IMG/VR virus record: IMGVR_UViG_2548876954_000010
Coordinates: 1-30,963 of that record
Source: a virus
Taxonomy: Duplodnaviria > Heunggongvirae > Uroviricota > Caudoviricetes
DNA: 30,963 nucleotides
Strand: one strand, 5' to 3'
This document shows, in pieces, positions 2,953 to 20,233 of this stretch. The notes below the pieces were generated by a model. That model searched no databases. It was not told the origin of the DNA and saw only the letters and a program-made list of their open reading frames with translations. The first letter of the stretch is position 1. Every line of letters begins with the position of its first letter. The position numbers and the translations under genes are program-made.

Positions 2953-3462
2953 ATGTTTGATTTTCAGATTTCTAAACATCCTCACTATGACGAAGCGTGC
3001 CGGGCTTTTGCGCAGCGTCACAACATGGCGAAGCTGGCCGAGCGTGCGGGTATGAACGTTCAAACGTTACGTAACAAGCTCAACCCAGAACAGCCTCACC
3101 AATTCACACCGCCTGAATTGTGGCTGCTGACTGACCTGACCGAAGACTCAACCCTCGTTGATGGCTTTCTGGCGCAAATACATTGTCTGCCATGCGTGCC
3201 GGTTAATGAGCTGGCTAAAGAGAAATTGCAGTCTTATGTGATGCGCGCAATGAGTGAACTCGGCGAACTGGCGAGCGGTGCGGTATCAAATGAACGTATG
3301 ACCTCTGACCGCAAACACAGCATGGTTGAGAGTGTTAATGCAGGCATCCGCATGTTGTCTCTGTCGGCGCTGGCGTTACAGGCGCGTCTACAGGCTAACC
3401 CGGCAATGTCGAGCGTGGTTGATACCATGACCGGCATCGGCGCAACATTTGGTTTGGTATGA
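2953..3462 (+). CDS. cII: CII-like lysogeny-establishment regulator (186 CII family)
   Basis: Start at MFDFQISKHPHYDEACRAFAQRHNMAKLAERAGMNVQTLRNKL (ATG 2953, AGAGGG RBS). 169 aa, and the sequence closely matches my recollection of coliphage 186 CII. Second gene of the rightward early operon. Confidence 0.8.
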   Translation: MFDFQISKHPHYDEACRAFAQRHNMAKLAERAGMNVQTLRNKLNPEQPHQFTPPELWLLTDLTEDSTLVDGFLAQIHCLPCVPVNELAKEKLQSYVMRAMSELGELASGAVSNERMTSDRKHSMVESVNAGIRMLSLSALALQARLQANPAMSSVVDTMTGIGATFGLV

Positions 3463-3469
3463 GGTGTTT

Positions 3470-3670
3470 ATGCTGAAAAATGAACCCTCATTCGCATCTC
3501 TGCTCGTTAAACAAAATCCAGGTATGCATTACGGTCACGGCTGGATCGCGGGTAAAGATGGTAAGCGCTGGCACCCGTGCCGCTCTCAGTCTGATTTACT
3601 GGCTGGCCTCTCTACTCAAAAGCTGGGGGAATCATGGCTATCGAAGCTGTTTCCGCGACTATTCCGCTAA
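3470..3670 (+). CDS. Small early protein (fil/dhr-region gene of 186-like phages); function not assignable
   Basis: ATG at 3470 with GAGG RBS 5 nt upstream; 66 aa. Lies where 186 encodes host-interference genes (fil, dhr). No motif I can identify. Confidence 0.4.
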   Translation: MLKNEPSFASLLVKQNPGMHYGHGWIAGKDGKRWHPCRSQSDLLAGLSTQKLGESWLSKLFPRLFR

Positions 3671-3972
3671 AAGCGGGTGAACGTCTGGCCGGTCTCAATC
3701 ATGTAGCTGAATTGCGCGCGAGATATTGGGGCGATAGTTGGAAAGAGGTTGAGCGCTTTGTCGATGATATGCGCGATAAACGTGACTCTCAATTTGAAGA
3801 AAATAATCGGGCGCTGGCCGCTATTTTCTTTCTGGCAAAAATACCGGCGGCTCGTCATGAGCTCGAATTAAGTGAGCTGACTACTGACGAGAAAAAAGCG
3901 CTTATTACAGCGATGAATCATTTTCGTGCAGTAGTGAGCTTATTTCCCAAACGGCTAACCATGCCGAATTAA
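3634..3972 (+). CDS. Early-operon protein of unknown function (fil/dhr region)
   Basis: 112-aa ORF with GGGGGA RBS at 3622-3627. Overlaps the previous gene by 37 nt in another frame; same strand and operon. Confidence 0.45.
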   Translation: MAIEAVSATIPLKAGERLAGLNHVAELRARYWGDSWKEVERFVDDMRDKRDSQFEENNRALAAIFFLAKIPAARHELELSELTTDEKKALITAMNHFRAVVSLFPKRLTMPN

Positions 3973-4488: not shown

Positions 4489-6711
4489 TTGGCTGTTCAA
4501 TTCGCTTATCCGTGGAATGCTCCACGATCGGCTATAGCCAGCCCATACCTTACTTATAAGCAACAGCATCGCCGCGACCGTATGTTCGCGGCGATGCTGC
4601 ATGCTAAAAAGGTGCTTTCTCTCCAGCCCGACTGCGTGCGGTTAGATGTTTATCGCACTGCGGCAGTGCTGGAGCAAAATCAGGGCATTCAACGAGCCAA
4701 TGCCTTTTTGATCAGCTTCTGCAAAAAGGCATTGCCGCGTCTTGAATTGGTCGCAAAAAAATACGAATGCGCGGGTATCAACAGCAAGGTATCAACCTCT
4801 GTTTTTGGAAGTCATTTTGATACCCAGCTTATGCAATATCTGGCGTCACGCATGGTTAATATGGTCGCCCGATATAACCGCCTCCCGGATATGTCGCGCG
4901 CTGATGTTGACCTGTTGGCCGCCGATATTGCTAATTTCATTCGTGGTGAACTTGCCAACATTAATGACCACGGATTCGGCGAGCTTAAAACGCTGTACAC
5001 CTGGTATAATCGTGCTGGCTTTATTTCCCTCCAGTTCAACGTTATCCCCCCCCATTGGGATCGGGTTGCAAAAAAATATGTTGGCGCGGATGAAATCGCA
5101 CCGGCTATCGCCAAGATGTTTAACGATGGGTGGTGGCGTGGTCGTTTGCGCCGGGTTGCAGCTACGTGGCGCGAACACCTGCAAATTGCAGTCGGCAACG
5201 TCAGCAAGAAAAAAAACACCTATGCGAGTAAAAACTGCGTGACTGACTGGCGTGAACAAAAGCGCCGAACTCGTGAATTTCTCAAAGGTCTGGATCTCGA
5301 AGACGAAGACGGCAACCGTATCAGCCTGATTGAAAAATATGATGGCTCAGTTGCTAACCCTGCGATTCGCCGCTGTGAGCTCATGACTCGCATTCGTGGG
5401 TTTGAAAACATCTGTAATGAGCTCGGTTATGTCGGTGAGTTTTACACTCTGACCGCGCCGTCGAAATATCACGCCACGACTAAAGCCGGTTACCGTAACA
5501 GCAAATGGAGCGGTGCCAGCCCGGCTGACACGCAAAACTATCTAACTGATATCTGGGCGCGTATCCGTGCCAAACTGCATCGGGAAGATGTCCGTATTTT
5601 CGGTATTCGTGTCGCCGAGCCCCATCACGACGGTACTCCACACTGGCACATGCTGATGTTCATGCTGCCGGAAGATGTTGAATATGTTCGCTCCATCGTC
5701 CGTAAATACGCGTGGAAAGAAGACCGCCGCGAACTGAAAAGCGATAAGGCAAAAAAAGCACGTTTCCACGCCGAGTCCATTGACCCGGAGAAAGGCAGCG
5801 CAACCGGCTATGTTGCTAAATACATATCAAAAAATATCGACGGTTATGCTCTCGATGGTGAAACCGATGATGAAAGCGGTGAACTGCTGAAAGAGACAGC
5901 CCCCGCCGTTTCAGCATGGGCTTCGCGCTGGCACATCCGTCAGTTTCAGTTTATCGGTGGTGCGCCGGTGACGGTTTACCGTGAGTTGCGTCGCCTCGCT
6001 GATACCGAAACCGCGCACGGACTGAGCGTTGAGTTTGCCGCCGTCCATGATGCCGCCGACGCTGGTGACTGGGCTGGTTATGTTAATGCGCAGGGTGGAC
6101 CGTTTGTCCGTCGCGATGATTTACAGGTGCGCACACTGTATGAACCACGTACCGAGCTTAATCAGTACGGTGAGGAAACGGTATGTATTAAGGGGGTCTA
6201 CGATTCCTCCATAGGTGCAGGTAGCCCGATTTTAACCCGGCTCACTCAGTGGAAGATTGTTCCGAAGCATGCTGTTGATTTGGCCGTTGACCTTCAGGAC
6301 GGCAAAGCCGTCCCTCGGAGTTCTGTCAATAACTGTACGGGAAGCGAAAACGCTCCACCGGTACTGGATTTGACAAAGCCCCTGAGTCGACGCGAAAGAC
6401 GAGAGCTAACCAACCGACTCAGGAAGCAAAAATCAGCAATACGGCGAAAGTTCAGCCACGGAACGGATGAGCAAAACGCAGCTATAGCTAAAACTATCGA
6501 CGAGATACAACTGACAACCGGCATTACAATCAGCCGGAGCGAAGCCCTGCACCTGATGGCCGGTGGTAAAAGTTGTTTTGATGGCAAATGGCTACGCGGA
6601 ACGGCCAAAGGGGAAATATTTTCCGCAGCACCATCGCATGAGGCTAAAGCTCGGAAAATCCTTAATCGTGTTGCGGCGATGGCTGAATCATCAAAACCAA
6701 CACATGAGTAA
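4489..6711 (+). CDS. A: Rolling-circle replication initiator endonuclease (P2 gpA family)
   Basis: 740-aa ORF. Contains the HUH-like motif region (EPHHDGTPHWHMLMF) and paired tyrosines in GYVAKYISKNIDGYAL. Codon at 4489 is TTG; the first in-frame ATG is at 4582, so the exact start is uncertain. Confidence 0.9.
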   Translation: MAVQFAYPWNAPRSAIASPYLTYKQQHRRDRMFAAMLHAKKVLSLQPDCVRLDVYRTAAVLEQNQGIQRANAFLISFCKKALPRLELVAKKYECAGINSKVSTSVFGSHFDTQLMQYLASRMVNMVARYNRLPDMSRADVDLLAADIANFIRGELANINDHGFGELKTLYTWYNRAGFISLQFNVIPPHWDRVAKKYVGADEIAPAIAKMFNDGWWRGRLRRVAATWREHLQIAVGNVSKKKNTYASKNCVTDWREQKRRTREFLKGLDLEDEDGNRISLIEKYDGSVANPAIRRCELMTRIRGFENICNELGYVGEFYTLTAPSKYHATTKAGYRNSKWSGASPADTQNYLTDIWARIRAKLHREDVRIFGIRVAEPHHDGTPHWHMLMFMLPEDVEYVRSIVRKYAWKEDRRELKSDKAKKARFHAESIDPEKGSATGYVAKYISKNIDGYALDGETDDESGELLKETAPAVSAWASRWHIRQFQFIGGAPVTVYRELRRLADTETAHGLSVEFAAVHDAADAGDWAGYVNAQGGPFVRRDDLQVRTLYEPRTELNQYGEETVCIKGVYDSSIGAGSPILTRLTQWKIVPKHAVDLAVDLQDGKAVPRSSVNNCTGSENAPPVLDLTKPLSRRERRELTNRLRKQKSAIRRKFSHGTDEQNAAIAKTIDEIQLTTGITISRSEALHLMAGGKSCFDGKWLRGTAKGEIFSAAPSHEAKARKILNRVAAMAESSKPTHE

Positions 6712-6824: not shown

Positions 6825-7007
6825 ATGGTTGGCGAACATTGCAGCCGAACGCAGCAAAAGTGGGCTTGTGTGCAATTTATTGCCGAGGTATCTCTGATTG
6901 CAAACTGCAAGCCATCAGACTTAAAGCTCGCGCTCACTCTCATTGCAGACCTAGCAAACAGCGAAAATAACGAAACCGAAGATGATAATTTTTATAAGGC
7001 TGATTAG
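6825..7007 (+). CDS. LexA-controlled small protein; possibly the N-terminal part of a Tum-type antirepressor
   Basis: 60-aa ORF with a strong RBS (GGGAGGGA, spacing 4) 20 bp downstream of the LexA box. It is followed within 3 bp by a dinI-like reading frame. 186 Tum is an SOS-induced antirepressor whose C-terminal part is DinI-like (recollection). Confidence 0.45.
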   Translation: MVGEHCSRTQQKWACVQFIAEVSLIANCKPSDLKLALTLIADLANSENNETEDDNFYKAD

Positions 7008-7009
7008 AT

Positions 7010-7240
7010 TATGAGAATCAATATCACGTTGGATAAAGAACAAAAAATTAGGGCAACAGATCATTGATGCTTTTCAGAATGAAATAACACATCGAGTACA
7101 ATGCGTTTTCCTGCAACAAAAGTTAACGTTAAGAAAGGGTCAATGACTAGTGTAGAGGCTATCGGATTCGATAAAGAGGCGGACAGAGAAACATTAGGCA
7201 GCATATTACAAGAGATGTGGGAAGACGATAGCTGGCGTTA
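7010..7240 (+). pseudogene. dinI-family gene disrupted by two frameshifts (DinI-like domain of a tum-type locus)
   Basis: Three collinear segments across two frames read MRINITLDKEQKIRATDH* / IDAFQNEITHRVQCVF... / MTSVEAIGFDKEADRETLGSILQEMWEDDSWR*. Together they track E. coli DinI end to end as I recall it (MRIEVT..., ...IDALAGELSRRIQYAF..., ...KEDKQRISEILQETWESADDWF...). Stops fall at 7064-7066 and 7143-7145. Confidence 0.5.
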
Positions 7241-7258
7241 AACATAATAACCGTGCTG

Positions 7259-7312
7259 GCGCAAAAACTAGCTTTTTGCGTCGGCGGGGTTGAGTAACGA
7301 GCCCACGAGGCT
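7259..7312. repeat. Copy A of a composite motif: 8-bp-stem hairpin followed by a conserved ~30-nt box
   Basis: Hairpin CGCAAAAA-ctagc-TTTTTGCG (7260-7280), then tcGGCGGGGTTGAGTAACGAGCCCACGAGGC. A second copy lies at 7664-7718. Confidence 0.5.
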
Positions 7313-7440
7313 TAAGTCCTGCCTTTCAAAATTTCTCAATGTGCTATTGATGACACGCCCATGATTAATGAGGCATGACCTGAGATAGTTTTATAGTGGC
7401 GTTTTGACGGCACTGATTAAAATTCATTGAGGGTGATAAT

Positions 7441-7650
7441 ATGCATCGACTACCAGGTGAAATTCCGCATCACAAAACTAAAAGCATCAAACTGATGGCC
7501 ATCGTTCATCGTCTGCAGCAGATAATGGTCAATGAGAATTTGACACCCACAGAGCTGGTCGGGTGTGCCGAAATAGTCAGGGATAATTACGGCAAGCTGG
7601 ATAGCATCAGCAGGCCGACACAATACGCCCCCCCACCACGTCGACGATAG
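7441..7650 (+). CDS. Hypothetical 69-aa protein
   Basis: ORF with a good RBS (GAGGGTGA) and ATG at 7441. Lies between the two copies of the hairpin-plus-box motif. No recognisable motif. Confidence 0.45.
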   Translation: MHRLPGEIPHHKTKSIKLMAIVHRLQQIMVNENLTPTELVGCAEIVRDNYGKLDSISRPTQYAPPPRRR

Positions 7651-7663
7651 CAAACGTCGTCAA

Positions 7664-7718
7664 GCGCTGAAACTCGCTTTCAGTGCTGACGGGGTTGAAC
7701 AACGAGCCACGCGAGGCG
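7664..7718. repeat. Copy B of the composite hairpin-plus-box motif
   Basis: Hairpin GCGCTGAAA-ctcgc-TTTCAGTGC, then tGACGGGGTTGAACAACGAGCCACGCGAGGC. The stem differs from copy A at paired positions (AA/TT in A versus TG/CA in B), so base-pairing is preserved. Confidence 0.5.
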
Positions 7719-8150
7719 TTAGTTGGTTACCTGATTGACACCGAGCGAAAGCAGGTTTGTCACCGCACCGGCAATAACTCCGGGTGTCCCGTCTTTCACC
7801 GCACTGATAATCTTATCGCCCAGCGTTTCATTACCGCCGAGTGCCTCGGGCTTTTTGTTGAGCACGGCGAGTGCTTTCTCGGTCAGGCGCACATCCCGAA
7901 AATAAGTCTGATTGTCTGTTTCATACTGGATGTAGCCGTTTTCACTGAGAAAAGTGAATGTACCCTCAACCACACTACGCAACTGATTCAGTGCTTTCAT
8001 TTCCGGTGAGTTAAGTTGGTCAAAGTAGTCATCAGGTAGCGCGGCGTTAAATTTTTCGTAGGTGATGACCTGCGGCACCGGGAAGTTATCCCATAACACC
8101 GCAAAAATTTCCGCCGTCTGCTGATTAAATAATTCGAGGTTTTTGGACAT
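7719..8150 (-). CDS. Hypothetical 143-aa protein (orphan gene in the A-to-cos accessory region)
   Basis: Minus-strand ORF with AAGGGA RBS upstream of ATG (8148-8150). Ends immediately beside motif copy B. No motif I can assign. Confidence 0.55.
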   Translation of the reverse strand: MSKNLELFNQQTAEIFAVLWDNFPVPQVITYEKFNAALPDDYFDQLNSPEMKALNQLRSVVEGTFTFLSENGYIQYETDNQTYFRDVRLTEKALAVLNKKPEALGGNETLGDKIISAVKDGTPGVIAGAVTNLLSLGVNQVTN

Positions 8151-8340
8151 GCATAATTCCCTTTCATCGATAGACCCGTTTGCCGATTGGGCAAAAAAGC
8201 TGACCGTAATGGCTTCAAATAACGACCTGAGTTCTCGTGAGGTGGAAAGCTACACCGAAAAAATGGTCGAGCAAGCCAGTAAAGATGAGCTTACGGTCGT
8301 TATCAAACACCTGTTAAACCACATCAGAATGCACAAATAA
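8143..8340 (+). CDS. Hypothetical small protein (65 aa); weak call
   Basis: ORF whose start overlaps head-to-head with the start of the 143-aa minus-strand gene. RBS is poor at 8143. A terminator follows at 8481-8505. May be spurious or start internally. Confidence 0.3.
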   Translation: MDMHNSLSSIDPFADWAKKLTVMASNNDLSSREVESYTEKMVEQASKDELTVVIKHLLNHIRMHK

Positions 8341-8505: not shown

Positions 8506-8662
8506 ATGCCATTTTTCCGCGATTTCCCCGTTTTAGCCGTGCATGCAACAGGTGCATGGTTTTGCATTCGCAGGGGTTGCCCGTTCTGACCGTGCGCCGC
8601 CAGAGCTGGCGCGGATCCCGAGAGTTCATGCAACTGCATTAAAACCGCCCCGTAAAGCGGGC

Positions 8663-8681
8663 AGGCGTGGCGGGGAAAGTA
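8663..8681. other. cos: cos site (cohesive-end sequence) of the P2/186 family
   Basis: ggcgtggcggggaaagtat followed by tgcgcgctg matches my recollection of the P2 left end (GGCGAGGCGGGGAAAGCAC TGCGCGCTG...) and the 186 cos. It sits in a GC-rich hairpin-dense ~250-bp segment between the A-side accessory genes and the portal gene, where the permuted prophage map puts cos. Confidence 0.6.
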
Positions 8682-8796
8682 TTGCGCGCTGGATCATAAA
8701 CGATTGCTTACTTTGAAGAAAATAGTGTGCTTATGAACTGCAAACTTTATACAATCAGAATTTGCCGAATCTCTTTTTTGATGAATAAGGGTTTTT

Positions 8797-9624
8797 ATGA
8801 CTGGTGTTGTGAATTACGATGTGGTTATCAGGAGTGGTGATCAGCCCGTTGATATGGATTATGCGCTGGAAACGTTAGGCGGAGCATCGGAAGTTACCTG
8901 TTTACTAGCAGAAGCAATCCTACAAAAAAAAGTCGTTAAAAGAAGAAGTCCTGCTAATAAAGCGCGAGCAGTTTTACATCAGAGCTTCCCGAGTTCTTAT
9001 GGACAAAACTTTGCGTTAGCTATAGATGACCCAATATTAAAAGCTCGTTTAGTTGAAATAACCAACCCTGTACTTGCGGAAATTATGGGATTTTACATAT
9101 CTGAAGCTATGTATATACAACCTCCGGCTTTATCAGCACGAGCCAGACATTATATTGAAGAGCTTGAATATCTTGAAGATGAAATTATAAGCCGTATTCG
9201 GAATCCTTTAATACGCATGCACAAAATTAATTACCGTCGCAACTGGGATATTGATTTCAATTTTAAACCTGATGGTAGACAAAGAAAAATAGTGACTTTA
9301 AATACTAGGACTGCAGCAAATCTAACTCACACAACGGTTGAAAGGGAAAGATTTAATATAATTGCAATGGTTACAAGATTCAACTCTCGTACAGGTAATG
9401 GCCGTTTAGTGCTACAAGATGAGGACGAGACTGTTGCTTTTGGTTTTGCCAACCAATTAGGAATGGTTCCGTCCGCACAGAAAAGAATGATTTCTTTGAA
9501 TCTACATAATAATAATGGAAGATCCGATAATTACATATATCTTAGTATGACTGTCAGTAGGGTTGTAATTATGAGCGGTGAGACTGTAAAATATGCAGTA
9601 CACTCTGTGCGTGTATTGGAATAA
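8797..9624 (+). CDS. Hypothetical soluble 275-aa protein, first gene of an AT-rich two-gene cargo cassette
   Basis: ORF with AAGGG RBS. Markedly AT-rich compared with the flanking phage backbone. No TM segment or catalytic motif I can recognise. Its stop (9622-9624) is 2 nt from the next start. Confidence 0.7.
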   Translation: MTGVVNYDVVIRSGDQPVDMDYALETLGGASEVTCLLAEAILQKKVVKRRSPANKARAVLHQSFPSSYGQNFALAIDDPILKARLVEITNPVLAEIMGFYISEAMYIQPPALSARARHYIEELEYLEDEIISRIRNPLIRMHKINYRRNWDIDFNFKPDGRQRKIVTLNTRTAANLTHTTVERERFNIIAMVTRFNSRTGNGRLVLQDEDETVAFGFANQLGMVPSAQKRMISLNLHNNNGRSDNYIYLSMTVSRVVIMSGETVKYAVHSVRVLE

Positions 9625-9626
9625 GT

Positions 9627-10376
9627 ATGAATAGAATTAAGTGCATATGTGGGTTGATACTAGCTGCTGCTTGGGCAGCGTACTATCTTCATTTTGGCAT
9701 AGACGGAAGCCTCTCCCAAAAAACTGAAGTTTGGGGACAGTTTGGCGACTACGTAGGTGGGGTGGTCAACCCCATTTTAAGTTTTATAACCATATATCTA
9801 CTTATTAACTCAATAGGGTTACAGCGCGAATCTAATGAAAGCTTAACCAATGAAATAAAAAGACAAGAGAAGCTAGAGGAATATAAAAAATTTGAGCTAC
9901 GATTCTTTCGCTTGATTGAATCGCAGGAGGAAAACTTCAGTCGTTTTAAAATATGTATATCACAACAGGATGATGATGAGCAAAATGTTGATGAACAGTT
10001 AGAAAAAACAGATGAAATATTGAGTGGTGGAGCAGCAGTAACATTCATTGAAGATTGTTTGTTACCCCTCAAAGAGGCTGGAGTTAGCAAGGAGCGTGTA
10101 TTCCATTGGTTAGATAGTTTGGATGATGATGGATCATTTTTTTCATTAGTAAGACGTTTCTATCTCATTCTCAAATTAGTCGATGCCAATACACTTACAA
10201 AAAGCGAGAGAGATGAAATGTATGAAACGTTGATTAATCTTACTGATATTAAAGTAATTAGCATCATTGCAATCTTGAGTTTGCATTATGATTGGTACGC
10301 AATCAAATACATTAAGGCAACAAAAATTCTTGACAAGGAAGGAGTTAGGGAATTCGTTGAAATGTATAAAATTTAA
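9627..10376 (+). CDS. Hypothetical membrane protein (two N-terminal TM helices plus acidic cytoplasmic domain), second gene of the cassette
   Basis: N-terminus has two hydrophobic helices (ICGLILAAAWAAYYLHF and VGGVVNPILSFITIYLLINSIGL). The rest is charged and Asp/Glu-rich. AT-rich, closely spaced after the upstream gene, followed by a terminator. Confidence 0.7.
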   Translation: MNRIKCICGLILAAAWAAYYLHFGIDGSLSQKTEVWGQFGDYVGGVVNPILSFITIYLLINSIGLQRESNESLTNEIKRQEKLEEYKKFELRFFRLIESQEENFSRFKICISQQDDDEQNVDEQLEKTDEILSGGAAVTFIEDCLLPLKEAGVSKERVFHWLDSLDDDGSFFSLVRRFYLILKLVDANTLTKSERDEMYETLINLTDIKVISIIAILSLHYDWYAIKYIKATKILDKEGVREFVEMYKI

Positions 10377-10411
10377 TTGTGAAAATTTACAGTCAATTCA
10401 TGGCGATCGGT

Positions 10412-10437
10412 TGAAGCCGCTAACAAGCGGCTTTTCT
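10412..10437 (+). terminator. Rho-independent terminator closing the two-gene cassette
   Basis: Stem AAGCCGC (10413-10419) / GCGGCTT (10426-10432), then a T-rich tract. Sits between the cassette and the convergent portal gene. Confidence 0.55.
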
Positions 10438-10447
10438 ATATCGATAT

Positions 10448-11458
10448 TTATCCGATTGTGTAATCTTTAAAGCTTATTACCTTCACCCCCAGCCAGTCAT
10501 TAATTTCTTTGAATCGCTCCTGCAACGGTGTTAACTCGTTGCGAACAAACACCTTTGCTACCCTCTCAACATCCCCGAGCGATGCGATGTTTTCAGGCTT
10601 GCCCCCCATCAACTGGAACGGCACGCGGTGCGCATCGAGCAGGTCAGCGGCGCTCACCTTTTTAATATTGAAAAAGTCATCTTTCGTGGCAACCTCACTC
10701 AGCGGCACAATCTTGATACCATCCGGTTTCCCGTTCGGTGCGTAGAAAAACAGGTTTTTAAAATTCCCGAGTCCCTTTGAATCACGCATCGCAGAACGCA
10801 GTGACTCGACGTCGGTGCTGCTTTGGGCAGCGTCGGTGACGTACATGATGTAACCCGCGTGCGCGCCATTCTGGTAATACTTGCGACGAAACAGGGTGGC
10901 GGATTCATTCAGCCAGGCGGAATTGAGTGCGCTCAGATATTCAGGCATACCGTAAAGCTCCTGATTAATGTCAGGCTCCAGCAGATGAAACACCGAGCCG
11001 GGTGCGAACTGATGTGGGTTGTTAAAGCTCGACACGTACCAGTAAACACCATCCTCAACGCCACGACGGGTATATTTAGCTGGCGATGTTTCCAGTTTTA
11101 AAAGGTGACCGGTAACACTCATGCGCTTCTCAAGATAACCGTTCGCAAAGACCAGATAATCCAGCACGAGGCGGCTGAAATCCTGACGCGACAGCAGCGG
11201 GTGCGGGATGTAGGTGCTCGCCAGAATGTTACGTTTCACGTAAATCGGCGAGCTGTGATGAACGGCGGCGCGCAGGCTTTTTGCCAGACCAGAGAAGTTG
11301 ACCGGCGGCTCGTACCACTTACCGTTATTGATGCACTCGACATAATCGAGGATATCGCGACGATCCAGAACGGCAGAGGGCTCGCCAAAGGTGAACGCCT
11401 CCATTTTTTGCGGTGCGCTAACGGTCGTTGTGGTGGGTATCTTCAGTTGCTTTTTCAT
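10448..11458 (-). CDS. Q: Portal protein (P2 gpQ family)
   Basis: 336-aa minus-strand ORF directly downstream of the terminase ATPase gene. N-terminal region (FTFGEPSAVLDRRDILDYVECINNGKWYEP) matches P2 Q as I recall it. Leftward Q-P pair next to cos as in P2. Confidence 0.9.
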   Translation of the reverse strand: MKKQLKIPTTTTVSAPQKMEAFTFGEPSAVLDRRDILDYVECINNGKWYEPPVNFSGLAKSLRAAVHHSSPIYVKRNILASTYIPHPLLSRQDFSRLVLDYLVFANGYLEKRMSVTGHLLKLETSPAKYTRRGVEDGVYWYVSSFNNPHQFAPGSVFHLLEPDINQELYGMPEYLSALNSAWLNESATLFRRKYYQNGAHAGYIMYVTDAAQSSTDVESLRSAMRDSKGLGNFKNLFFYAPNGKPDGIKIVPLSEVATKDDFFNIKKVSAADLLDAHRVPFQLMGGKPENIASLGDVERVAKVFVRNELTPLQERFKEINDWLGVKVISFKDYTIG

Positions 11459-19259: not shown

Positions 19260-20096
19260 CTAACCTCGTATTATTCCTCTCGATATTTTTATTGCTGGGT
19301 TTTCCTTTCTTATTTCATTTTTAATTTGCTCATCACAAATTAAATAATCTATGTTTTTTGCTTTAACAAGTTCTTTAACGCTAATGTTAATTGAATTTAA
19401 TAGATTTGCATTCCGCATGTTAGCCCCTTCATAAGTAACGGATTTAAAATCACATCCTTTTAATATGCAGCTTTTCATTTCGCTATCTGTAAAATACCCC
19501 CCTTCAAAACTGCAGTTTTCGAAAGTAACATTTTGAAAACGTGTATTAAATGCCTTAATATTTCTTAGCTTGCAGTTTTTGAATTTAACACTCTTAACTC
19601 TATTGCCTGTAATATTTAGAGCTTGAATTGTGCAATTATCGAAAGAACAATCTCTAATGTATGATTCGCTCATATTCAAGCCGGTTAAGTCAGCGTCTTT
19701 AAAATGTAAGTATTTGATAGTGGACATTTTATCAAGTTCAATCCTTGGAACTTGAATGTTATATATTCCTTTGGCATTTAACTGACGTATGATTTTTATC
19801 TTCATAATATTCAGTTCTGCAGAAGAATGCTTTGCCAGATTTTCAAGATCTTCAATTAGTTCGTGAATAGCATCTTTATTTTGCCTTTTATTTTCAAAAT
19901 AGTAAAGGATCACACCCAAAACAAGAAAGTCTAAAATTGAAGAATTTGCATTAACAAGAAAATTCTCCATGAATTTTGAGTTGTAGTTATCATTATAAAC
20001 AGACAACCCTACTATAAGCCCGGAGTATAAAAAAAAGATACCTATAATATATTTCATATTGCTTATTGTACGCCTAAAAGATGAAGTTCTTTTCAT
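19260..20096 (-). CDS. Membrane-anchored pentapeptide-repeat protein (moron, antisense to the late operon)
   Basis: Minus-strand ORF. Start taken at MKRTSS (20094-20096), with 20141 also possible. Two N-terminal hydrophobic helices (YIIGIFFLYSGLIVGLSV, ILDFLVLGVILYYF), then ~20 tandem pentapeptide repeats (CSFDN CTIQA LNITG NRVKS VKFKN CKLRN IKAFN TRFQN VTFEN CSFEG ...). Very AT-rich against a GC-rich backbone. Confidence 0.7.
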   Translation of the reverse strand: MKRTSSFRRTISNMKYIIGIFFLYSGLIVGLSVYNDNYNSKFMENFLVNANSSILDFLVLGVILYYFENKRQNKDAIHELIEDLENLAKHSSAELNIMKIKIIRQLNAKGIYNIQVPRIELDKMSTIKYLHFKDADLTGLNMSESYIRDCSFDNCTIQALNITGNRVKSVKFKNCKLRNIKAFNTRFQNVTFENCSFEGGYFTDSEMKSCILKGCDFKSVTYEGANMRNANLLNSINISVKELVKAKNIDYLICDEQIKNEIRKENPAIKISRGIIRG

Positions 20097-20233
20097 TACT
20101 ACCTGCCATATGTTTTGTGTGATTTTCGAATGAGTCAACACTCAAATGATACATGAATGCACACCGAATTGTGTAGAAGAGCATACAGCTGAATCGTTTT
20201 GCTCTTGGCTTTAACAATCGGCATTCTTTGTTC

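What the first reader, a model, noticed from the sequence alone, without database searches (positions are those of the whole stretch)
8797..10437. AT-rich two-gene cargo cassette between cos and the portal gene: soluble protein plus 2-TM membrane protein, candidate undescribed anti-phage system
In canonical P2 the portal gene lies close to cos (recollection). Here about 1.7 kb of strongly AT-rich DNA is inserted, encoding a 275-aa soluble protein and a 249-aa protein with two N-terminal TM helices and an acidic cytoplasmic domain. The genes are co-oriented, separated by 2 nt (translationally coupled) and closed by their own terminator, so they form a self-contained module. The sensor-plus-membrane-effector architecture in a P2-family variable region is the pattern seen for abortive-infection and defence cassettes. 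I cannot match either protein to a named family (Kiwa, Thoeris, AbiE and others were considered and do not fit by size or gene order), so it may be uncharacterised.
Basis: partly seen in the sequence, partly recalled or inferred. Interest (0 to 1): 0.8.

Follow-up and report, generated by a model that had tools for sequence, protein, structure and literature searches.

The report
Untested two-gene phage-defence candidate in P2 hotspot
Next to the packaging site of a P2/186-like E. coli prophage sits a rare, mobile two-gene cassette, a soluble OB-fold protein plus a two-helix membrane protein, that looks like an untested anti-phage module of a small family not yet described as a system.

Summary
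Two tightly coupled genes, A (8797-9624, 275 aa) and B (9627-10376, 249 aa), lie in 37% GC DNA between the cos site (8664-8682) and the portal gene. A hairpin terminator follows at 10413-10434. Both genes are under strong purifying selection (dN/dS 0.09 and 0.06).

The position is the published P2 gpA-cos-gpQ defence hotspot. This exact locus is listed there as 'hypothetical' and was never tested.

A is a divergent DUF7946-DUF7947 protein whose C-terminal domain is an OB-fold. B is an N-in/C-in two-helix inner-membrane protein. Its membrane module, with the motif WGQFGDYxGGxxNP, is shared with putAbiC (AbiC/AbiP-type) abortive-infection proteins. Its acidic cytoplasmic domain matches nothing.

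A was directly followed by B in every locus complete enough to show it. These are P2-like phages of several genera, the psu-int hotspot of P4 satellites, other prophages and one stand-alone islet. More distant A relatives pair with other effectors, including a HEPN Abi_C protein and other membrane proteins.

Most likely this is a sensor or antitoxin plus membrane-effector abortive-infection system. That function is inferred, not shown. It is a new variant of a known kind and moderately interesting.

The parts
8532..8690 (.). P2-type cos region; the 19-nt core GGCGTGGCGGGGAAAGTAT is at 8664-8682. Similarity between P2-like loci ends right after TTGCGCGC (about 8690), which marks the left junction of the cargo.
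   Evidence: Sequence read. It matches the P4/P2 cos-region sequence printed in Rousset Table S2A. The alignment of 8 loci shows conservation up to about 8690 and none afterwards.
8750..8755 (+). Candidate -10 element (TACAAT) for the cassette, with a poor -35 element. This is inferred only.
   Evidence: It is conserved between the window and the 91%-identical allele in L022. The consensus promoter scan found no site upstream of A.
8797..9624 (+). Gene A: a 275-aa soluble basic protein with a DUF7946-like N-terminal domain (about 1-178) and a DUF7947 OB-fold (about 180-273). Proposed sensor, regulator or antitoxin.
9627..10376 (+). Gene B: a 249-aa inner-membrane protein with TM1 at about 7-25, the invariant motif W36-GQFGD41-Y-x-GG-xx-NP49 leading into TM2 at about 42-64, a long stalk helix to about 105, and an acidic helical cytoplasmic domain. 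Proposed effector or toxin.
   Evidence: ORF. Model pLDDT 87. Invariant columns. Hydropathy and pI. hhalign probability 98.9% to a putAbiC-annotated protein, carried by the membrane module. dN/dS 0.06.
10413..10442 (+). Hairpin with U-rich tail between the convergent genes B and Q. Likely intrinsic terminator of the cassette.
   Evidence: RNA fold -21.5 kcal/mol, z-score -3.0. Sequence. Not listed by the simple terminator scan.
10448..11458 (-). Portal gene Q, the right boundary of the hotspot (context only, not part of the module).
   Evidence: ORF. RefSeq annotation of the identical prophage. Pfam Phage_portal in related loci.

Best explanation
The cassette is a prophage-borne two-gene phage-exclusion module of the abortive-infection or toxin-antitoxin type, carried as swappable cargo in the cos-adjacent defence hotspot of a P2/186-like prophage.

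Shown: A and B are co-transcribable, translationally coupled and under purifying selection. They were adjacent in every locus examined that was complete enough to show the next gene. A is a cytoplasmic two-domain protein ending in an OB-fold with an invariant polar loop (R194, N196, T199, N201, G202, R203). B is an N-in/C-in two-helix inner-membrane protein. Its invariant Gly/Pro/Asp-rich membrane motif is shared with putAbiC (AbiC-type) proteins.

Inferred: in the lysogen, A holds B inactive. A then recognises an infection cue, either phage nucleic acid or a phage protein bound through the OB-fold face. It releases or activates B, which damages the membrane (depolarisation or permeabilisation) and stops phage development before progeny are made. 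I take A to be the sensing or regulating part because more distant members of its family keep the same 270-aa architecture while the downstream partner changes.
For: Location: the cassette lies in the published hotspot between gpA and gpQ next to cos. Similarity between loci ends exactly at the cos boundary.

Accessory and swappable: the cassette is in 4 E. coli genomes against 1599 with the portal-terminase module, and other cargo occupies the same slot.

Pair conservation: among 39 loci compared, A was directly followed by B wherever the downstream DNA was present; L041 ends inside A. Of 21 IMG/VR contigs, 19 show A-B directly before the portal gene. The pair also lies in the P4 psu-int hotspot at 44% and 35% identity, next to an integrase in a Vibrio prophage, as an islet between housekeeping genes in Acinetobacter, and in Klebsiella phage Kp4865-4. 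Gene junctions range from an 8-nt overlap to a 2-nt gap.

Swappable effectors: distant DUF7946-DUF7947 proteins are followed by a HEPN Abi_C protein, a 3-TM protein, a TM plus NERD-like protein and a 1-TM protein. Mrr, type I RM, HTH-M78 or HigBA-like genes lie nearby.

Folds: OB-fold in A. The membrane module of B matches a PF16872-bearing protein, which itself hits the PADLOC AbiC and AbiP models.

Precedent: PdpSau, an AbiP-like prophage protein, aborts infection with membrane depolarisation. In two studies, 6 of 8 and more than a third of untested cargo from these hotspots protected against phages.
Against: There is no phenotype anywhere. Neither protein appears in the tested-system tables of Rousset 2022, in the 2026 P2/P4 preprint or in the DefensePredictor supplements.

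PADLOC gives no significant hit for A. For B it gives only a weak ZorB-like hit in the membrane region.

Once the membrane helices are removed, the similarity of B to the putAbiC protein is not significant (hhalign E 0.05). Neither B nor any of 57 relatives hits PF16872.

No consensus promoter was found. One distant A relative has no co-oriented partner in the DNA available. What A binds is unknown, and an OB-fold alone does not show nucleic-acid binding. The mechanisms of AbiC and AbiP are themselves unknown.
Confidence: 0.6

Rival explanations
1. It is a pure toxin-antitoxin (addiction) pair. A, upstream, is an antitoxin that can pair with many toxins, and B is a membrane toxin. The pair stabilises the prophage or the hotspot cargo and has no role against other phages.
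For: The upstream soluble gene overlaps or abuts the downstream membrane gene, as in type II TA operons. The A family pairs with unrelated downstream proteins, as described for hyperpromiscuous antitoxin domains (the paper listed, PMC10440598, was not read in detail). A is basic and the cytoplasmic domain of B is acidic.
Against: At about 270 aa, with an OB-fold and many invariant polar residues, A is larger and more constrained than a simple neutralising antitoxin. The pair sits in hotspots whose cargo is mostly defensive. TA behaviour and defence do not exclude each other.
Confidence: 0.13
2. It is a superinfection-exclusion system acting at the inner membrane: B blocks DNA entry of incoming phages, and A is an accessory factor.
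For: B is a prophage-encoded inner-membrane protein with a strongly conserved motif at the periplasmic end of TM2.
Against: The pair strictly requires a cytoplasmic OB-fold partner. Relatives of A pair with a cytoplasmic HEPN Abi_C protein, which fits action after entry rather than a block of entry.
Confidence: 0.08
3. It is non-defensive cargo, for example a host-fitness or membrane-physiology function, or a counter-defence gene pair that happens to ride in the hotspot.
For: Function is untested, defence HMM libraries are silent, and not all hotspot cargo protects in assays.
Against: The pair recurs in two independent defence hotspots (P2 and P4) and near Mrr, RM and TA genes in unrelated bacteria. 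The family of A also pairs with a HEPN Abi_C protein.
Confidence: 0.12
4. It is a phage structural, packaging or lysis accessory function, suggested by its position next to cos and the portal gene.
For: The only support is its position next to cos and Q, plus a weak PHROG hit of B to an Rz-like spanin (E 0.049).
Against: It is present in only 4 of about 1600 E. coli genomes that carry a P2-like module. It is AT-rich foreign DNA. The pair is also found in P4 satellites, beside integrases and in a non-phage islet.
Confidence: 0.02

Closest known systems
Cargo of the P2 gpA-cos-gpQ and P4 psu-int defence hotspots (Rousset et al. 2022, PMC9122126)
   Same: Same position, the same cassette-swapping behaviour, and AT-rich self-contained operons. 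This locus and two related pairs are listed in that paper's Tables S5A, S5B (system 77) and S1B (system 31).
   Different: The entries there are unnamed and unannotated ('hypothetical', '2 TM in protein 1'), and the pair was not among the systems cloned and tested.
AbiC/AbiP group of membrane-anchored abortive-infection proteins (Pfam putAbiC PF16872; lactococcal AbiC and AbiP; S. aureus PdpSau)
   Same: B has two N-terminal membrane helices, as AbiC does. It shares the motif WGQFGDYxGGxLNP with an E. coli putAbiC protein that hits PF16872 and the PADLOC AbiC and AbiP models. Like PdpSau, it is prophage-borne.
   Different: Those are single-gene systems, whereas B was always seen paired with A. 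B does not hit PF16872, and homology of its cytoplasmic domain is not significant. In AbiP and PdpSau the nucleic-acid-binding region reported in the literature lies in the same chain; here the OB-fold lies in a separate protein.
Pfam DUF7946 and DUF7947 (families of unknown function)
   Same: A has the same N-to-C two-domain layout and a length of about 270 aa. Its relatives grade into proteins that pass both Pfam thresholds.
   Different: A itself scores below threshold (15 bits against 27). The Pfam families carry no functional annotation, and no paper in the library mentions them.
Lambda RexAB (prophage-encoded soluble sensor plus membrane effector)
   Same: It works alike on paper: a prophage-encoded cytoplasmic protein of about 275 aa plus an inner-membrane protein that collapses membrane potential on infection (from my own knowledge; Rex is mentioned).
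   Different: No sequence or fold similarity was detected. RexB has four membrane helices and no large cytoplasmic domain.
Zorya ZorB (MotB-like)
   Same: A weak HMM match covers the membrane region with its conserved Asp (E 3e-4 for B, 0.011 for the P4 allele).
   Different: There is no ZorA partner and no peptidoglycan-binding domain. The inferred topology is N-in/C-in, which puts the Asp at the periplasmic end. I treat the match as a chance or compositional resemblance.

Membership tests
P2 cos-proximal defence-hotspot cargo (Rousset 2022) | Lies between replication gene gpA and portal gene gpQ, next to cos, in a P2-like prophage | tested here: met
   gpA is at 4489-6711, the cos core at 8664-8682 and Q at 10448-11458.
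P2 cos-proximal defence-hotspot cargo (Rousset 2022) | The content of the slot differs between otherwise related prophages | tested here: met
   4 genomes carry this cassette and 1599 carry the Q-P module. Other cargo occupies the slot in strains PKF8 and S42. Allelic A-B variants at 58% and 54% identity sit in a prophage whose terminase is 99% identical.
P2 cos-proximal defence-hotspot cargo (Rousset 2022) | Confers resistance to phages when cloned | not testable with these tools
   No phenotype is reported in the papers or supplements searched.
putAbiC / AbiC-AbiP membrane Abi proteins | N-terminal membrane anchor with the WGQFGDYxGGxLNP-type module | tested here: met
   hhalign probability 98.9%, E 1.3e-17, against a PF16872-bearing E. 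coli protein. The motif is invariant in 57 homologues.
putAbiC / AbiC-AbiP membrane Abi proteins | PF16872 (putAbiC) cytoplasmic domain at Pfam significance | tested here: not met
   No PF16872 hit for B or any of 57 relatives at E up to 1. hhalign of the cytoplasmic part alone gives E 0.053, probability 1%. No PADLOC AbiC or AbiP hit.
putAbiC / AbiC-AbiP membrane Abi proteins | Acts as a single-gene system | tested here: not met
   B directly followed an A homologue in every locus examined that extended past A.
Pfam DUF7946-DUF7947 two-domain family | DUF7946 N-terminal domain followed by DUF7947, in a protein of about 270 aa | tested here: met
   A itself is below threshold. However, 31 of 37 family members hit DUF7947 and 7 of 37 hit DUF7946. 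Profile hits in 1.84 billion representatives are nearly all 262-288 aa. Of 10 distant hits, 7 pass the DUF7946 cutoff and 2 pass the DUF7947 cutoff.
OB-fold nucleic-acid-binding proteins | Five-stranded OB barrel with a helix between strands 3 and 4 | tested here: met
OB-fold nucleic-acid-binding proteins | Binds ssDNA or RNA | not testable with these tools
   The top structural matches also include metal-binding and sugar-binding OB-folds, so the ligand remains open.
Zorya (ZorAB) | ZorA partner plus ZorB with a C-terminal peptidoglycan-binding domain | tested here: not met
   Only a weak membrane-region hit. No ZorA-like gene lies in the cassette. The C-terminal domain is helical and cytoplasmic.
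Named defence systems in PADLOC-DB v2.0.0 | Significant hit to any system model | tested here: not met
   A has 0 hits, and B has only ZorB3 at E 3e-4. The P4 allele of A hits candidate PDC-S25 weakly, at E 1e-5 over 80 residues.

The most novel reading that the evidence does not exclude
DUF7946-DUF7947 proteins are an undescribed class of infection sensors. Their OB-fold would recognise a phage nucleic acid or a single-strand-binding-type protein and gate interchangeable effectors: AbiC-like 2-TM proteins, other membrane proteins, a membrane-anchored NERD-like nuclease, or a HEPN Abi_C RNase. The P2-borne pair in this window would be the E. coli archetype. It would give the first experimental handle on how AbiC-type membrane abortive-infection proteins are switched on.
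Probability: 0.3. Interest if true: 0.75.

Novelty: new variant of a known kind. Interest (0 to 1): 0.55.

Why it matters
If the cassette protects against phages, it adds a compact two-gene system to the E. coli defence repertoire. Its sensing half has no described function anywhere. That half appears to be reused with several unrelated effectors, which is how modular immune systems are usually recognised.

AbiC and AbiP were found in lactococci decades ago and still lack a mechanism. A Gram-negative relative of their membrane module, with a separable partner, would be an easy system to dissect in E. coli.

The cassette is also a clean example of cargo exchange exactly at the cos boundary. Related alleles sit in both the P2 and the P4 hotspots.

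Tried and rejected
1. HMM libraries. PADLOC, Pfam, NCBIfam and PHROGs gave no named system. The PHROG families 13337 and 8999 are of unknown function.
2. Solved structures. The PDB sequence-profile search found nothing for A. For B it gave only an insignificant S100/EF-hand-like match (E 0.37), and that loop is not conserved in the family. I rejected it as chance.
4. Fold search of A. Foldseek against the PDB found nothing for the N-terminal domain.
5. AFDB50. This fold library was unavailable.
6. ZorB resemblance. Rejected, because the topology differs and there is no ZorA or peptidoglycan-binding domain.
7. RefSeq label. One allele of A is labelled 'P-loop NTPase family protein'. I see no Walker A motif in the sequence, and the model is not a P-loop fold, so I rejected the label.
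8. Full putAbiC membership of B. Tested and not supported beyond the membrane module.
9. A-B fusion. I suspected one because PADLOC candidate PDC-S25 is 517 aa. The exhaustive search found no fused relatives of about 520 aa.
10. Literature. Searches for putAbiC, DUF7946, DUF7947, the WP accessions and the PHROG ids found no paper.
11. Other candidate systems. The newly named P4 systems Crouga, Bandua, Aernus, Toga, Reve and Hailong do not match.
Full report
1. What is in the sequence

The window is a P2/186-like prophage of E. coli. It is essentially identical (100% over the cassette, 99.7% over the portal and terminase genes) to a prophage of strain A38 inserted next to yfiB. The gene order is integrase, CI, CII, Fil, replication endonuclease gpA, small ORFs, the cassette, portal Q and terminase P on the opposite strand, then the capsid and tail genes.

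The two reported ORFs are exactly where stated. A is at 8797-9624 (275 aa) and B is at 9627-10376 (249 aa), on the same strand and 2 nt apart. The cassette has 36.8% GC, against 55% for Q and P.

The cos core GGCGTGGCGGGGAAAGTAT is at 8664-8682. I recognised it from the P4/P2 cos-region sequences printed in Rousset's Table S2A and from its conservation in seven other P2-like loci. In that alignment, similarity stops abruptly after TTGCGCGC (about 8690). The cargo therefore starts directly at the cos boundary.

Between the stop of B and the stop of Q lies a 9-bp hairpin (10413-10434) whose G+C-rich core is followed by UUUUCUAUAU. Its folding z-score is -3.0. It is a plausible terminator, although the simple scan did not list it. 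No consensus promoter was found. The only candidate is a conserved TACAAT at 8750-8755.

2. The position is a known hotspot and the locus is already catalogued

Rousset et al. 2022 defined the cos-proximal region between gpA and gpQ of P2-like phages as a hotspot of anti-phage systems. The matching hotspot in P4 satellites lies between psu and int. Their Table S5A lists this very locus (WP_001407037 + WP_001407036, with four neighbours) as 'hypothetical'.

Two related pairs appear in their summary tables. One is P2 system 77 (50 occurrences, '2 TM in protein 1'). The other is P4 system 31 (49 occurrences). Neither has a Pfam label or a name. Neither is in the table of cloned and tested systems.

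The pair is also absent from the supplements of the 2026 P2/P4 preprint and of DefensePredictor. No paper in the library mentions DUF7946, DUF7947, putAbiC, the accessions or the PHROG ids.

3. It is accessory and swappable

A P2-like Q-P module occurs in 1599 of 5426 complete E. coli genomes. This cassette occurs in 4. The same slot holds a DUF262 protein plus a hypothetical protein in strain S42, and a single 334-aa hypothetical protein in strain PKF8. A prophage whose terminase is 99% identical carries an A-B allele of only 58% and 54% identity.

4. The pair is a unit

I compared 39 loci. In every one that extended past A, B followed directly; L041 ends inside A. The contexts are:
- 21 IMG/VR viral contigs, of which 19 show A-B directly before the portal gene of P2-like phages. 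Portal identity to the window ranges from 59% to 100%, and most of these contigs also show gpA upstream.
- Citrobacter and Pectobacterium prophages.
- The psu-int hotspot of E. coli P4-like satellites, at 44% and 35% identity, in 7 complete genomes.
- Beside P4-type integrases in metagenomic contigs, once next to Mrr and a type I restriction gene.
- Beside the integrase of a Vibrio parahaemolyticus prophage.
- As a two-gene islet between fumarase and pta in Acinetobacter.
- Next to valS in Chromobacterium.
- At 27% and 30% identity in Klebsiella phage Kp4865-4, the only deposited phage genome with the pair.

Gene junctions run from an 8-nt overlap to a 2-nt gap. Identities of A and B fall together across loci.

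5. Protein A

A itself hits Pfam DUF7947 only weakly, but the family connects to both Pfam models:
- 31 of 37 family members hit DUF7947 and 7 hit DUF7946.
- An exhaustive HMMER search of 1.84 billion representative proteins found only 210 relatives (65 at E up to 1e-30). Nearly all are 262-288 aa, and there are no long fusions.
- Of ten distant hits, seven pass the Pfam cutoff for DUF7946 and two pass it for DUF7947, in the same order.

So A is a divergent member of a small family with a fixed architecture and unknown function. Invariant polar residues cluster in the first OB loop (R194, N196, T199, N201, G202, R203), in NLHxNN (235-239) and in SYGQNF (67-72). This points to a specific ligand site. 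The ligand is unknown.

6. Protein B

The model (pLDDT 87) shows a helix at 2-24 and one long helix at 33-105, which holds the second membrane span and a stalk. A helical domain follows. Hydropathy and the charge distribution give an N-in/C-in topology, with spans at about 7-25 and 42-64. The cytoplasmic part is acidic, with pI 4.8.

The motif W36-GQFGD-Y-x-GG-xx-NP49 is invariant in 57 homologues. A profile of the family aligns to an E. coli P2-hotspot protein that Rousset's table labels putAbiC (hhalign probability 98.9%, E 1.3e-17). That protein hits PF16872 (E 1e-18) and the PADLOC AbiC (9e-6) and AbiP (3e-4) models.

7. The family of A pairs with different effectors

Beyond the A-B clade, true DUF7946-DUF7947 genes are followed by a range of other genes:
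- an overlapping 240-aa protein with three membrane helices, with an Mrr/M78 gene next to it;
- a membrane-anchored protein with a NERD-like motif, judged by eye;
- a 347-aa Abi_C (HEPN) protein with an Rx6H motif, downstream of an HTH-M78 regulator;
- a 189-aa one-helix protein, with an Mrr-type gene upstream.

One case has only convergent HigBA-like and MNT genes downstream, and its upstream side is cut off.

A constant 270-aa protein with changing partners, most of them membrane proteins or nucleases, is the pattern of a sensing or regulating component with swappable effectors. It is equally the pattern of a promiscuous antitoxin.

8. Most likely mechanism

I commit to an abortive-infection or toxin-antitoxin-type exclusion module. 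A restrains B in the lysogen and senses an infection cue through its OB-fold face. Freed or activated B then damages the inner membrane and stops phage development.

The anatomy, the coupling of the genes, the mobility of the pair and the partner swapping are shown. The direction of control, the trigger and the membrane effect are inferred. The inference rests on precedent: PdpSau, an AbiP-like prophage protein, depolarises and permeabilises the membrane on infection, and untested cargo from these hotspots protected in 6 of 8 cases and in more than a third of cases. My confidence that it is a defence module of this kind is 0.6. My confidence in the detailed order of events is lower.

The rivals are a pure addiction module, superinfection exclusion at DNA entry, non-defensive cargo, and a packaging or lysis accessory function. 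The last is excluded by the distribution of the pair.

9. Novelty

The hotspot, the idea of a sensor plus membrane effector, and the AbiC-type membrane module are all known. What has not been described is the obligate pairing with a DUF7946-DUF7947 OB-fold protein, and the modular use of that protein with other effectors. I rate it a new variant of a known kind. It is of moderate interest because many such untested candidates exist and this one carries no phenotype.

Noticed in passing
window 19260-20141 (- strand): A second AT-rich island (GC 0.30-0.41) lies between the virion-morphogenesis and baseplate V genes. It encodes a 293-aa protein with N-terminal membrane helices and pentapeptide repeats (Pfam Pentapeptide_4, E 6.7e-17). 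The N-terminus hits PADLOC SLATT-type models weakly (E 6e-5). It may be a single-gene cargo or defence candidate in another P2 variable locus.
   Followed up: partly
window 6825-8340: Further small cargo ORFs lie on the gpA side of cos. They include a truncated DinI-like ORF (7101-7241, 46 aa; relatives have 77 aa), a 143-aa ORF on the minus strand (7719-8150) with no family, and an overlapping 65-aa ORF (8143-8340). Rousset's table lists them with the cassette as one six-gene 'hypothetical' locus.
   Followed up: partly
L002 (E. coli E66, NZ_CM173951) 3098-3925: RefSeq names this allele of protein A 'P-loop NTPase family protein'. I see no Walker A motif in the sequence, and the predicted fold is not a P-loop fold. 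The label looks like a misannotation.
   Followed up: partly
L047, L048, L051, L052 (metagenomic contigs): Distant DUF7946-DUF7947 genes are followed by different partners: a TM plus NERD-like protein, a 3-TM protein, a HEPN Abi_C protein and a 1-TM protein. Mrr-type or HTH-M78 genes are often adjacent. This suggests a wider modular family that has not been described.
   Followed up: partly
L007-L010, L014 (E. coli P4-like satellites, psu-int slot): A paralogous A-B pair (44% and 35% identity) occupies the P4 hotspot in 7 of 5426 complete E. coli genomes. The same system family is therefore present in both the P2 and the P4 hotspots. This bears on the 2026 preprint's statement that P4 and P2 almost never exchange defence genes, although the divergence here is old.
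   Followed up: partly
L020 8816-9337 and 9574-10512: In one metagenome scaffold the B gene is shortened to 173 aa and the portal gene to 312 aa. This could be decay of the cassette or an assembly error.
   Followed up: no
P0301 (1965 aa, representative library): A very long protein matches residues 194-237 of A (the conserved OB loop region) in 11 separate stretches. This may be a repeat protein built from that motif, or a compositional artefact. It is unexplained.
   Followed up: no
window 9627-10376, residues about 113-180 of B: A weak S100/EF-hand-like match (E 0.37) covers the LDSLDDDG loop. The loop is not conserved in relatives, so the match is probably chance.
   Followed up: yes
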